Part shown: one piece after another, positions 4,223-61,996 of the stretch | How positions within the stretch are numbered: the first letter of the stretch is position 1 | Layout of the letters: every line of letters begins with the position of its first letter | Origin: Octopus sinensis | Taxonomy: Eukaryota | DNA: 64,000 nt | Direction: 5' to 3' | Assembly: GCF_006345805.1 (NCBI RefSeq) | Contig: NC_043010.1 | Location: 53,196,001 to 53,260,000 of the forward strand | Translations under genes and position numbers: made by a program | The notes under the pieces: generated by a model | The model's database searches: none | The model's input: only the letters and a program-made list of their open reading frames with translations | Told to the model about the DNA's origin: nothing

Positions 4223-4509
4223 TATATATAGGTGTGTATATAAGGAAAAAGAAATGAATAAAGGATAAATGATTTTTCCCATGAACTTCATTAGCTTACG
4301 GCTGTTTCTGCTATTGTGGTTGTGTGCCTGTGTAACAGCCTACAGCTTCATAGGAACGTCGGATATGAAGTGCAACTTATCTGGGAAAGAATATAGTTGG
4401 GAACGGTATTATCGTTGAGAACGTCAATATAGATGACTATAGAAATGATGTCTCCGAAAAGTAATTATCGTTTTTTGTAGAAATATATGTATATATTTAT
4501 ATTTAAAGT

Positions 4510-7021: not shown

Positions 7022-8142
7022 AGTATTAATTTATAAAAATATGGTAAAGTAAAAAAAATTCACTTTACCGCACACCGAACTTTTCAGAAATAGCAGCCAA
7101 AATTTGGCTATTTCTTCAACTGCAAGTAAAAGTCTCCAGACAATGCATACTCAGAAAATAACTCACATAGGTATAAGGGAAAAACAATGAAAGATCACAT
7201 CCATATAAGATACCCGAGAACAGCCTGTTTCTGGATTCGTGGGTTAGAAGGAAAAGTGGCGTTTAACCCACGAATCCAGAAACAGGCTGTTCTCGGGTAT
7301 CTTATATGGATGTGATCTTTCATTGTTTTTCCCTTATACCTATGTGAGTTATTTTCTGAGTATGCATTGTCTGGAGACTTTTACTTGCAGTTGAAGAAAT
7401 AGCCAAATTTTTGGCTGCTATTTCTGAAAAGTTCGGTGTGCGGTAAAGTGAATTTTTTTACTTTACCATATTTTTATAAATTAATACTTCAAATATACCG
7501 TAAATGGTCCTTTTACATACCGAATACTACTTGGTCGAATTGATTAACAATTAATTAATTCTACCCCGTTTTTACTGACAATATAATGCTTTCTCTCCAA
7601 GAATTTGAACTACAGTTTTCGCGTCTGTAGAAATGCACTACTCTATGACTCACGTGGGTGGACAGGGAGAATAATAGATCTCATTTGTATTTTTGGATTC
7701 GCTAGTACTGGGTGTCCAGCATAGTTTGTCCGATGTTACAGATATCGGATGGGTATGTTTGGTTCTTAGTATTTTCAAATCCAAATCAGAAGAAATCTCT
7801 GAGCTGATGAAGGAAAAGTGGCGTTTAACCCACGAATCCAGAAACAGGCTGTTCTCGGGTATCTTATATGGATGTGATCTTTCATTGTTTTTCCCTTATA
7901 CCTATGTGAGTTATTTTTCTGAGTATGCATTGTCTGGAGACTTTTACTTGCAGTTGAAGAAATAGCCAAATTTTTGGCTGCTATTTCTGAAAAGTTCGGT
8001 GTGCGGTAAAGTGAATTTTTTTACTTTACCATATTTTTATAAATTAATACTTCAAATATACCGTAAATGGTCCTTTTACATACCGAATACTGCTTGGTCG
8101 AATTGATTAACAATTAATTAATTCTACCCCTTTTTTACTGAC
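7022..8142 (+). mobile_element. Penelope-like pLTR cassette (inverted + direct repeat) carrying a hammerhead motif
   Basis: 7022-7246 is the reverse complement of 7264-7488. 7247-7579 is repeated directly at 7809-8142. Copies are near-identical and the cassette is flanked by (TA)n. Confidence 0.75.
7798..7859 (+). ncRNA. Type I hammerhead ribozyme motif
   Basis: Stem I TCTGAG/CTCGGG; core CTGATGA; stem II GGA..GTGG/CCAC..TCC; GAAA; stem III ACAG-G-CTGT; site GUU. Confidence 0.7.
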
Positions 8143-24104: not shown

Positions 24105-24413
24105 TAACAGATATATGTAGAAAATAAGTCCCTGAAATTCCAGGTCTTCCCATTCTGCTTGTGTTCAGCGAATACCACAGATGAAGCACGGATAAACAAA
24201 GAAAATACTTTCATACAAAAATACAAACCAAGATTTAACAAACTTCAACAGGTAGGAGTGGCTATGTGGTATGTAGCTTGCTTACCAACCACATGGTTCC
24301 GGGTTCAGTCCCACTGCGTGGCACCTTGGCCAGGTGTTTTCTACTATGGCTTCGCGTCGACGAAAGCCTTGTGAGTGGATTTGGTAGACGGAAAGAGAAA
24401 GAATCCCGTAGTA

Positions 24414-24466
<53 letters not shown>

Positions 24467-24700
24467 ATATGTTTGTGAGTATGATTTGTCCCCCCAACAT
24501 CGCTTGACACTCGATGCTGGTGTGTTTACGAAATATTTTCTATCACATCTAAACTAACTATGACTTAACCATCCTCTCACACCGTCTCCGATGAAGAGAT
24601 ATAATTAATAAATATCCTGGAAACAGCTGTAAGACCTTCTATCTATAAATGCTCTAATATCTACAAAAACTTGGTTTTTTATCTCATTACGCAAAGAATT
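24105..24700 (+). mobile_element. Penelope-like 3' fragment (GIY-YIG C-terminus plus pLTR), interrupted by SINE A at 24251-24530
   Basis: FQVFPFCLCSANTTDEARINKENTFIQKYKPRFN fits the GIY-YIG C-terminal R..xE..FI..Y.P..N pattern, followed by a hammerhead motif. Confidence 0.65.
24584..24635 (+). ncRNA. Hammerhead ribozyme motif, U4C core variant
   Basis: Stem I GTCT/AGAC; CCGATGA; stem II GATAT/ATATC; GAAA; palindromic stem III ACAGCTGT; site GUA. Confidence 0.62.
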
Positions 24701-25520
24701 CATTCTTATATATATATATAAGGAACGAAGGAGGGGTGGGGAAAAAAACGAAATAAGAAAAAAATAAGAAAAAAAAAAATTTTTTAAATAAGAAATGTGT
24801 ATAGCAAAGCATATGTATTTGTAAGCATGCGTATCTGTGTATGTGTAAGTGAAAGTATGTTTGTGCTTAAGCACACATATACACGACGGTATGTATATGT
24901 ATCCATTCAAACTTGTGTATGTATACTGGTCTCTATAGATGCCAATAACACCGTTACACTGCTTGTATACATAATTTTTTTTTTCTTTTTTTTCTTATTT
25001 CATTTTTTCCCCACCCCTCCTTCGTTCCTTTTTCTCTCTCTCCCTTTCTTTCGTTCCCCCTCCTTGCCCAGTATATGAGAATTGCTACATAGATGAATTT
25101 TAGCTTGCGTGCGAGACGGTTTGCGTGAATATATGTACACATGCTTTTATGTGTATATTTAGATTTATATTCATACGTCTGTATATGTATGTATGGCGTT
25201 TACGCGCATCCTTTTGTGTATGTTGATATATATATGTAGATTTTAATATAAATATGTATTGCAGTATTTATAACAGGTTTAATTTCTATGCATTAATTTG
25301 CACTGTCTTCATTAACGTCAATAGGTTTTTTTACCTCGGATTTTATAATTTTTATAAGTTTTTTATATATATATACATATATTTTTGACCTTTTTGTTTA
25401 TCGCTCGAAGATTGACCGTTTTTTGTAAAGGGCCAATCAAACAAGTCCATTTCTTTTTAAAGGTGTAGCGTTTGTAAGAGTATAGATTGAATTGATATAT
25501 CAGTTCCATTCTAGCAAAAA

Positions 25521-25558
25521 CTGTCTGATGAACGGCAACGAGAAACTCAGAGTAACAG
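25521..25558 (+). ncRNA. Minimal type I hammerhead ribozyme motif
   Basis: CTGT-CTGATGA-A-CG(GCAA)CG-A-GAAA-CTC(A)GAG-T-A-ACAG. All core nucleotides and three stems are present; site GUA. Confidence 0.78.
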
Positions 25559-25591
25559 ATTTTGTTGAATTTTCTGCTGCTTAAAATAAAG

Positions 25592-25650
<59 letters not shown>

Positions 25651-33004: not shown

Positions 33005-33104
33005 NNNNNNNNNNNNNNNNNNNNNNNNNNNNNNNNNNNNNNNNNNNNNNNNNNNNNNNNNNNNNNNNNNNNNNNNNNNNNNNNNNNNNNNNNNNNNNNN
33101 NNNN
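33005..33104. other. Assembly gap (100 N)
   Basis: Run of N; 100 is a typical placeholder size. Confidence 0.99.
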
Positions 33105-47305: not shown

Positions 47306-47351
47306 AACACAACGTTTCGGCTTATATACCCTCCACCCTTCATCAGGTATC
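47306..47351 (-). ncRNA. Minimal hammerhead ribozyme motif
   Basis: Reverse complement: GATAC-CTGATGA-A-GG(G)T..A(G)CC-GAAA-CGT-T-GTGTT, with palindromic stem III ACGT. Confidence 0.65.
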
Positions 47352-60206: not shown

Positions 60207-61608
60207 TAACAAATAAAATAAAATAAAAAAGGGGGGTCGATCAAAAGGGATCGTAAAAGGAGAGAAAGGACAAAAAAAAGGGGGGGTTAAAAAAAAGGGG
60301 GAGAGGAAAAAAAATTGATCAATAGGGATCGTTATCACAGAAATGTCAATATGAAGTGTAAAGGGGAGGACAGGTGAGGTTTACCCGTGGAAAGAAAAGC
60401 CTACGGAAAAGACCACGGTAACCTCGGTCAATGAAGTCACATGTTATTTTCTTTTTTTTTTTGCAAATAAGCAACTCTCTGTATTAATTTTTACGGTTCA
60501 TATAATCATAGTCAAGGTGGCTTCGTCATTCATACGTGCCATTCTTGCTACATTCACCCATCTTTTTTTAAAACATTCACTAGACAAAACTTGCCTCTCT
60601 ACTCTCACTTTTTTCTTCAGTGATACTTGAAGAAGTTGATGAGAGATTGACCAGAGAGGAAAGTGTTTGTCTCTAATCCTTTCAGACGCGTCCACCAGAT
60701 ACATTCTTTCGCCATAGCCACAAGTATGATAAAAATAGCTCTTCCTTCCCGTTTGAAGGAAGGAGGCGTGACGATATTAACGATAGACTCGGCTGATAAA
60801 CCGACACGTCCCACACGTGACAGCAGTCGTTCGACATAAGCCCACAGGTGGGAAATTGCTGGACACTGCACGATTGCGTGCAGAGCGGTTTCGTCGCTCT
60901 GCCCGCATCTCGGGCAGGTCGGCCCCGTGTTTTCTCGAGCCATGCCTATAGAGCTTATCCCGAACGGGTAGCGCTTCTCGGTAGCACTGCCAGGCCAGGG
61001 ATCTCTGGAAGTTGTCCATAGGTCCCGGGCCGAAAGTCGTTTGAAACAGGCGGGTCAGGTATTCCTCGTCGACGCCCAGGTTTGCCCCGAGCTCGTCGTC
61101 GTACCTCCCCTCCACTAATCCCTTATAGAATGCTTTGGTTGTGTTGAAGTTACTCAAGGTCGACCCGGGACGGCAGAGTTGCTTGAGAGCAACGCGACAC
61201 TCGCGGTGCCATTCGCCCTTCTTCGGCCTCTTTTTGATCCACGACTGTAGTTCGGTCATGGAGACGAGTTGCGGGAATGCGTGCCTCACAAACGGCGACC
61301 ACACCTGTTCACCGTCGTCTACATAGAGCCGGAGATGTCGCAGTCTCAGCGCGTGTCTGCGCATCATCAACCACGGCATGCCCAGCCCTCCTTTTAACGG
61401 GTGTTGACAGCAAATGGATCGCCTGACCATCGGGACGCATCCTTTCCACAAGAAGCGGAAGAGGATGCGTTCTAGTTTGGTGATGGTAGGGTCGGGACAA
61501 GGTACGACGGTCAGGCGGTAGTAGATGATGGACGCGATGTACGCGTTCACCACCTCCGCCCGACCTTTTAGGGACAGTTTCCTCTCGGCCCATTGCTGGG
61601 CGAGAGTG
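60077..61608 (-). mobile_element. L1/Tx1-clade LINE, 5'-truncated, inserted in (GATA)n
   Basis: W..RKLSLKGRAEVVN...LERILFRFLW...PLKGGLGMP and a CCHC finger CPRCGQSDETALHAIVQCP; T-rich 3' UTR with AATAAA; (GATA)n on both sides. Confidence 0.9.
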
Positions 61609-61674
<66 letters not shown>

Positions 61675-61996
61675 GATAGATAGACAGTTCCGACTTCAAC
61701 ACTGATTATAGAATGCTTTATAACCAATTTTGTATATCACTCACTTTCTCATTCTTTCTGTCTGCCTTTCTTTCTTGCCCCGTATATAAGTGTATGTGTG
61801 TTTGACTGTATGTGTATGTGGGTGTAGATGTTCTACGTTATGCAAGGTATGTATTATGTGTGTACCATTGTATAATACATTTGAAAGTATAAAATGTGGA
61901 ATTTAAGATACTGTGACCCTTTATATTGATATAATGAATATAGAGACAGCATCATACAAATACAGAGTGAAAGGGGAGATAGATAGATAGATAGAT

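What the first reader, a model, noticed from the sequence alone, without database searches (positions are those of the whole stretch)
25521..25558. 38-nt minimal hammerhead with an A-A pair at the base of stem II
The core is complete, stem II has 2 bp closed by a GCAA tetraloop, and stem III is ACTC-A-GAGT. The canonical 10.1-11.1 Watson-Crick pair is replaced by A-A. The same deviation appears at 7798 and 4294, and an extra A at 24584 and 47306, in sequence-unrelated contexts. Minimal PLE hammerheads are known; this recurring CYGAUGA-A-stem-R-GAAA variant would be missed by canonical descriptors and may be a large, under-described family in this lineage (inference; I cannot check the literature).
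Basis: partly seen in the sequence, partly recalled or inferred. Interest (0 to 1): 0.72.

Follow-up and report, generated by a model that had tools for sequence, protein, structure and literature searches.

The report
Penelope retroelement hammerhead with tolerated mismatch
The motif is a real hammerhead-ribozyme sequence at the end of a very abundant jumping gene of a known kind; its odd A-A pair sits at a position that varies among the element's own subfamilies and is already known to be mismatched in relatives, and it is predicted, not shown, to cut weakly and only when two copies pair.

Summary
The 38-nt type I hammerhead motif is there and beats chance (5 hits in the window against 0.09 per shuffle). 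It is the pLTR hammerhead of a 5'-truncated copy (24783-25596) of a young Hydra-clade Penelope-like element: 2,722 exact core copies genome-wide, and full-length copies with a 727-codon RT-endonuclease frame between two hammerheads. The A.A is not a fixed pair: the 5' A is kept (204 of 206 copies) while its partner is U, G or A in separately amplified subfamilies. A.A (5,743) and A.G (3,272) motifs are abundant, in at least three lineages. A mismatch here is in print: a 2014 descriptor allows extra N10 and N11, and 15 of 26 published Hydra rows have U.U or U.C. I found no secure printed A.A or A.G; one paper that could hold it was unavailable. Folding predicts a blocked monomer and an open double hammerhead as dimer. 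Copy ends show no footprint of cutting (1 of 83). Site 4294 is not intact, 24584 is A.G, 47306 is the known extra-A form. The scan has noted Hydra hammerheads before on other DNA. Cleavage is untested.

The parts
24783..25596 (+). 5'-truncated copy of a Hydra-clade Penelope-like element (distal 3' UTR and pLTR), followed by (TA)n
   Evidence: blastn to full-length copy L091, 90.8% over 826 columns; 99-100% matches genome-wide
25512..25524 (+). stem I, 5' arm (core-proximal 4 bp at 25521-25524, extension beyond an A.A mismatch)
   Evidence: sequence; fold
25525..25531 (+). catalytic core C3-A9 (CUGAUGA)
25532..25532 (+). A at the base of stem II, 5' side (10.1, or extra N10 in Cervera numbering); kept
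   Evidence: A in 204 of 206 distinct copies in hand
25533..25540 (+). stem II: 2 bp closed by a GCAA tetraloop (GGAA in older subfamily)
25541..25541 (+). A at the base of stem II, 3' side (11.1, or extra N11); A, G or U by subfamily
   Evidence: A 160, G 24, T 22 of 206 copies in hand
25542..25545 (+). core G12-A13-A14-A15.1
25545..25553 (+). stem III palindrome ACUC-A-GAGU, predicted dimer interface
   Evidence: self-duplex -7.4 kcal/mol, cofold gives double-hammerhead pairing
25554..25554 (+). H17 = A; predicted cut after GUA
   Evidence: inferred from hammerhead consensus; not tested
25555..25567 (+). stem I, 3' arm
7798..7859 (+). second lineage with A.A (long stem II starting G-C; about 560-bp non-coding unit in tandem and inverted copies)
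24584..24635 (+). third lineage, A.G in the same slot, worn copy
47306..47351 (-). classical extra-A minimal hammerhead (G-C kept, ACGU palindrome), worn copy of another repeat family

Best explanation
The motif is the type I hammerhead sequence in the terminal repeat (pLTR) of a truncated copy of a young, very abundant Hydra-clade Penelope-like retroelement, its A.A lies in a slot that varies between the element's subfamilies, and it is predicted to be a weak ribozyme that cuts after A25554 only as a dimer or with help from the element's protein. Shown: identity of the element, copy number, the variation at the 3' partner, copy ends. Inferred: in a full-length transcript the two pLTR motifs, 3.35 kb apart, pair through the stem III palindrome into a double hammerhead; as a monomer the core is tied up by a 5-bp pairing with stem III; the RNA that is reverse-transcribed is mostly uncut (or re-joined), so a slow ribozyme costs the element little and the slot can drift from A-U to A.G to A.A. 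The 5' A is likely kept because it stacks under the G12.A9 pair and, as a purine, may still offer N7 to the A9-phosphate metal site. The window copy has no like partner in cis and is likely inert.
For: 2,722 exact 29-nt cores, control 0. Six of 10 loci picked for a long frame carry the motif on both sides of the RT-EN frame on the same strand, 3,353 nt apart in L091. Protein has the Hydra marks RWK, DKT (EKT in L091), CxCX5C, CxxC..E..N..CxH, C-terminal EN, (TA)n targets. The coral element Hydra-2_aMil has the same stems I and III with G-C in this slot. Among 206 copies, subfamily-level change falls only at U4, N7, L2.2, L3 and 11.1. Sister subfamilies: 2,813 matches; in the first 100 listed the partner is T 55, G 39, C 4, A 2 by hand count; within-group identity A.A 0.98, A.G 0.95-0.96, A-U 0.85-0.90; an A-U copy lies behind a Hydra frame about 76% alike at its N-terminus (L291). 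Monomer: C3-A6 paired with P 0.94-0.99; dimer MFE frees both cores (-26.2 against 2 x -12.0 kcal/mol). Copies end about 37-42 or 107-112 nt past the cut site (52 and 41 of 145; 45 run on as 5' pLTRs), and 60 of 83 distinct copies that reach the 5' UTR run through the upstream hammerhead. This fits PMC11167929, where a PLE hammerhead cut only with protein and was not needed for insertion.
Against: No cleavage data. No pile-up of copy ends at the cut site (1 of 83 within 5 nt; 1 of 30 arms), which fits a dead ribozyme as well as a slow one. No compensatory change inside this lineage's stems I-III core pairs: they are invariant, so conservation could come from protein recognition of the pLTR end. 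PMC3088659 states that U.U supports more cleavage than any other mismatch in this slot, so A.A should be worse than the published cases. For the A.G and A-U sister sequences the cofold MFE was not a double hammerhead. The copies in hand are biased to the A.A subfamily by how I fetched them.
Confidence: 0.72

Rival explanations
1. The motif is a catalytically dead descendant of a hammerhead, kept as a protein-binding or reverse-transcription-start signal; A.A is one step of decay.
For: No footprint of cutting in copy ends; youngest subfamily has the worst-looking slot and a monomer fold that hides the core; hammerhead mutants did not lower insertion in vitro in PMC11167929; the tail downstream is also conserved.
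Against: All ten invariant core positions and H17 are kept across subfamilies whose upstream flanks are only 71-74% alike, while the tolerant positions U4, N7, loop bases and L3 change; three lineages with different stems keep the same core and a palindromic stem III.
Confidence: 0.15
2. A10.R11 is a selected sheared purine pair that extends the G12.A9 stack and tunes the ribozyme, gained separately in several lineages.
For: About 9,000 A..R motifs in three lineages; A and G alternate as partner in two lineages; none among 36 well-formed metagenome motifs, which are G-C 26 or pyrimidine pairs 10, so the state is lineage-specific in that sample. Sheared A.A and G.A pairs being isosteric is recalled, not from a call.
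Against: U is as common a partner as G in sister subfamilies (55 against 39 of 100); C.A, U.G and C.U also occur in the second lineage (4 of 30 loci); the lineages may share an ancestor, so independence is not shown.
Confidence: 0.12
3. Chance arrangement in an AT-rich repeat.
For: The 38-mer does not fold better than its shuffles (z 0.37); Rfam has no match.
Against: Descriptor hits far above shuffles; canonical place in both pLTRs; near-identical stems in a published coral element.
Confidence: 0.01

Closest known systems
Hammerheads of Hydra-clade Penelope-like elements (Craig et al. 2021, PMC8557442; seen: passages, section 11, supplement parts 1-2 and passages of File S4)
   Same: Type I motif near the 3' end of a C-terminal EN+ element that inserts in (TA)n; stem III ACTC-N-GAGT or ACAG-Nx-CTGT; Hydra-2_aMil has the same stem I and stem III; 15 of 26 Hydra rows have a mismatch (14 U.U, 1 U.C) at the base of stem II, several followed by CG.
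   Different: No A.A or A.G row in File S2; stem II here has 2 bp against 3-7; this family is not Hydra-1_Obim (other hammerhead, other protein by eye); 3' UTR about 1 kb and unit 3.35 kb.
Minimal hammerheads (min-HHR) of metazoan PLEs (Cervera and De la Pena 2014, PMC4209133; seen: main text parts 1-2 of 4, whole supplement as text)
   Same: In both pLTRs, palindromic stem III, dimer model, conserved extra base after A9; descriptor allows an extra N10 and N11; one of 56 rows has AGAAA (29th, by order the Cotesia row, which begins CUGAAGAA), likely an A.A case.
   Different: Their consensus has G-C next to the core, 5-7 bp stem II and a 2-nt palindrome; here the first pair is C-G, stem II is 2 bp and the palindrome 7 nt. 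The row assignment is read from PDF text order and is not secure.
Natural hammerheads with U10.1.U11.1 or very short stem II (Perreault et al. 2011, PMC3088659; Cervera and de la Pena 2020, PMC7229834; seen: passages)
   Same: Mismatch at the base of stem II, stems II of 1-2 bp; axolotl HHR_Amex2 with U.U cuts better as a dimer.
   Different: Pyrimidine mismatch, not purine; U.U is said to be the best tolerated mismatch.
Poseidon PAc hammerhead (Frangieh et al. 2024, PMC11167929; seen: passages, section 3 part 2)
   Same: Two internal start sites of reverse transcription past the hammerhead give short and long ends; uncut RNA is the template.
   Different: Other PLE clade; tail here about 70 nt against 30-40; protein help not tested here.

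Membership tests
Type I hammerhead ribozyme | Core C3-U4-G5-A6-N7-G8-A9, G12-A13-A14, A15.1-U16.1, H17 between three stems, open stem I | tested here: met
Type I hammerhead ribozyme | Watson-Crick pair (usually G-C) directly after A9 and before G12 | tested here: not met
   A.A; quasi-conserved only, exceptions in PMC3088659 and PMC8557442 File S2
Type I hammerhead ribozyme | Site-specific self-cleavage after NUH | not testable with these tools
   only contigs available
Type I hammerhead ribozyme | Compensatory changes in the stems | tested here: inconclusive
   core-proximal pairs invariant within the lineage; stems differ yet pair between lineages, whose common descent is not shown
Rfam hammerhead families | Score above gathering threshold | tested here: not met
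   0 matches in the window
PLE minimal/dimeric hammerhead | Located in both pLTRs, sense to the RT-EN frame | tested here: met
   6 of 10 long-frame loci
PLE minimal/dimeric hammerhead | Palindromic stem III that cannot close as a monomer | tested here: met
   ACUC-A-GAGU, 1-nt loop; cofold
PLE minimal/dimeric hammerhead | Fits the published min-HHR descriptor (stem II 3-7 bp, GAAANNUH) | tested here: not met
   2-bp stem II and 7-nt palindrome against Fig. S7, compared by eye
Hydra clade of Penelope-like elements | Single frame, RT then C-terminal GIY-YIG-type EN without CCHH | tested here: met
   727-codon frame read against section 11; Pfam gives no family
Hydra clade of Penelope-like elements | RWK, DKT, CxCX5C linker, CxxC and CxH around E and N | tested here: met
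   RLRWKA, SDKT, CNCKNESSC (CNFK or CNYK in other copies), CRLC..E..N..CRH; blocks shared with Hydra-1_Obim and Hydra-1_Ajap by eye
Hydra clade of Penelope-like elements | Insertion into (TA)n | tested here: met
Hydra clade of Penelope-like elements | Placement in an RT tree | not tested
   no tree was built
Naiad clade | N-terminal EN | tested here: not met
   EN is C-terminal
Non-LTR retrozyme | Short non-coding tandem unit with a hammerhead in each unit | tested here: not met
   the 25521 family is a 3.35-kb coding element; the 7798 family may fit

The most novel reading that the evidence does not exclude
About 9,000 hammerheads in this genome use a purine.purine pair (A.A or A.G) at the base of stem II as a selected, sheared extension of the core that keeps the ribozyme off in monomers and on in dimers or with the element's protein; the subfamily series A-U, A.G, A.A would be a natural record of a retroelement tuning down its own ribozyme, and the 2-bp stem II form would be among the smallest active natural hammerheads with such a pair.
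Probability: 0.12. Interest if true: 0.55.

Novelty: new member of a known kind. Interest (0 to 1): 0.25.

Why it matters
Modest. It adds a large, young Hydra-clade family with intact frames and extends the states seen at the base of stem II from G-C and U.U to A.A and A.G. Its main use is practical: three natural sister sequences that differ at one base in this slot give a ready test of how much catalysis a Penelope-like element needs, which is an open question, and scans that demand a pair next to the core or a 3-bp stem II miss thousands of motifs in such genomes.

Tried and rejected
Rfam scan: nothing. Pfam on the 727-aa frame: nothing. Naiad membership: rejected on domain order. Footprint of cutting in copy ends: not found, 87 anchor rows gave 85 mapped, 2 of them duplicates from overlapping loci, so 83 distinct of the 93 genome matches; positions far upstream may be breaks of the alignment at microsatellites. 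Sequencing runs: no RNA holder listed; contigs of runs guessed to be RNA cover the element but cannot show ends or strand, so nothing is drawn on expression or cleavage. Viral contigs: no match to the printed Cotesia-row motif, so the AGAAA row could not be checked; one chance-like match to an A.A pattern. No RT-EN frame of the family was found next to the 7798 family (20 loci; one unrelated downstream EN hit in L309) or the 47306 family (20 loci) within 1.5 kb flanks. A GNRA-loop contact with U1.7 of stem I was considered (PMC11875169, passages): U1.7 is present but predicted paired, so it is left open. Papers not held: Lunse et al. 2017, Ferbeyre 2000, Nelson and Uhlenbeck 2008. Literature searches for a purine mismatch in this slot: 0; 18 listed, 3 opened for this point; 0; 1. 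bioRxiv 10.64898/2026.07.22.740005: part 1 of 5 read, supplements closed; PMC6765202, PMC6155905, PMC6795133, PMC3705267: passages only. No covariance model or tree was built.

Full report
Observation. The window reads CTGT CTGATGA A CG GCAA CG A GAAA CTC A GAG T A ACAG at 25521-25558. That is a complete type I hammerhead core with a 2-bp stem II, an A on each side of its base, and a palindromic stem III with one loop base. A relaxed descriptor finds 5 sites in the window against 0.09 per shuffle (100 shuffles) and 12 in 264 kb against 0.07 (30 shuffles). Stem I extends to about 12 bp around one A.A mismatch.

What carries it. The window lies in a 2.72-Gb animal genome, likely an octopod (inference from size and earlier scan notes; not determined). 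The 29-nt core occurs 2,722 times exactly, control 0. The window copy, 24783-25596, is the 3' end of a retroelement and is followed by (TA)n. Full-length copies have a 727-codon RT-endonuclease frame; in 6 of 10 loci picked for a long frame the same hammerhead stands on both sides, 3,353 nt apart in L091. The protein has the marks that Craig et al. 2021 (PMC8557442, section 11) give for the Hydra clade: RWK, DKT, CxCX5C linker, CxxC and CxH around the catalytic E and N, C-terminal endonuclease without CCHH, (TA)n targets. No tree was built. Many insertions are head-to-head pairs, one arm with a short and one with a long end, a layout known for these elements.

The A.A slot. Among 206 distinct copies in hand (biased towards the A.A subfamily), the 5' A is kept in 204, while the 3' partner is A 160, G 24, T 22; the only other positions with subfamily-level change are U4, N7, L2.2 and L3. 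A pattern for the sister subfamilies gives 2,813 matches; in the first 100 listed the partner is T 55, G 39, C 4, A 2 by hand count (the pattern fixes the 5' A). Within-group identity is 0.98 for A.A, 0.95-0.96 for A.G and 0.85-0.90 for A-U, so the order A-U, A.G, A.A is likely old to young (inference; the A-U group may be mixed). The same G and T variants appear in contigs of three of four public runs laid, T alone in the fourth. A second lineage shows 14 A.A, 11 A.G and 5 other states in 30 loci above a 7-bp stem that starts G-C; a third (7798) is A.A above G-C. Genome-wide, A..A patterns give 5,743 matches (control 62) and A..G 3,272 (control 28); all states together give 17,598 and 5,034 for the two commonest stem III types (controls 12 and 35). 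In 120 metagenome loci (scan stopped at its limit) 36 of 124 matches are well formed: G-C 26, U.U 8, U.C 1, C.U 1, none A.R.

What is in print. Cervera and De la Pena 2014 report a conserved extra base after A9 and a conserved G10.1-C11.1, and their descriptor allows an extra N10 and an extra N11. In that numbering the second and third lineages keep G-C and merely carry both extras. One of 56 rows of their Fig. S3 has AGAAA, by text order a row that begins CUGAAGAA, so likely an A.A (not verified). Craig's File S2 lists 26 Hydra rows, 15 with U.U or U.C in this slot, none with A.A or A.G; Hydra-2_aMil shares stems I and III with our motif and has G-C. Perreault 2011 reports natural U.U and 1-2 bp stems II and says U.U is the best-tolerated mismatch. 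An extra A10 lowers the rate moderately in a viroid hammerhead (PMC3705267). I could not read Lunse et al. 2017, the paper most likely to have covered this variant; searches found no description of a purine mismatch here.

How it likely works. Predicted: as a monomer the core pairs with stem III (C3-A6 paired, P 0.94-0.99); two strands fold into the double-hammerhead pattern with both cores free (-26.2 against 2 x -12.0 kcal/mol), though this did not hold for the two sister sequences folded. Shown: copies end about 37-42 or 107-112 nt past the predicted cut (52 and 41 of 145), and of 83 distinct copies that reach the 5' UTR only 1 starts within 5 nt of the cut while 60 run through the upstream hammerhead, at least 15 of them into a previous frame. 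So the copied RNA is mostly uncut or re-joined, as Frangieh et al. 2024 found for another PLE, whose hammerhead cut only with protein. Inferred: weak demand on speed lets the slot drift; the 5' A may be kept because the base here lends N7 to the A9-phosphate metal site (described for G10.1 in PMC6795133), though U.U relatives show this is not required. The window copy has no like partner nearby; the hammerhead 937 nt upstream has another palindrome.

Against my reading. Nothing shows cleavage; the lack of a footprint fits a dead motif too; the core-proximal stems are invariant within the lineage rather than covarying; and protein recognition could explain part of the conservation.

Verdict. 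A real, abundant hammerhead motif of a known kind of retroelement, with a tolerated purine mismatch in a slot already known to be mismatched. New member of a known kind; interest 0.25.

Noticed in passing
G000 genome-wide; examples L154-L158, L101, L318: A large family (28 of the first 100 rows) has GATG..CATC plus one extra pyrimidine before GAAA: either a 3'-only insertion before G12 or G-Y with a bulged C. L157 and L158 lie near Hydra-like EN fragments.
   Followed up: partly
window 7798-7859 (+) and flanks; L301-L320: About 560-bp non-coding unit with an A.A hammerhead, in tandem and inverted copies, 94-100% alike, 694 candidates; may be a retrozyme-like non-autonomous PLE derivative.
   Followed up: partly
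G000:C1, e.g. L054, L057, L061-L063, L065, L070: Many tiny head-to-head insertions join just upstream of or inside the hammerhead (core-to-core gaps of 2-31 nt), one arm with the short and one with the long 3' end.
   Followed up: partly
window 4294-4356 (-): Hammerhead-like remnant lacking G5 and stem I; family not found.
   Followed up: partly
L143:6322 (+); rows at C1:12149321 and C1:16010952: Hammerhead family with two extra bases 5' and one 3' at the base of stem II.
   Followed up: no
L366/L367 (G000:C6:105219603-105219877): Tandem of about 246 bp made of pLTR hammerhead plus the start of the frame, repeated head to tail.
   Followed up: no
window 60777-61736 (-): 319-codon frame fragment that looks like the C-terminal part of an L1/Tx1-type reverse transcriptase (by eye).
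   Followed up: no
window 24245-24530 (+): Abundant SINE-like repeat, seen beside many fetched loci.
   Followed up: no
window 33005-33104: Assembly gap of 100 N.
   Followed up: no
L023: Fragment of a Neptune- or Naiad-type GIY-YIG domain near a copy of this element.
   Followed up: no
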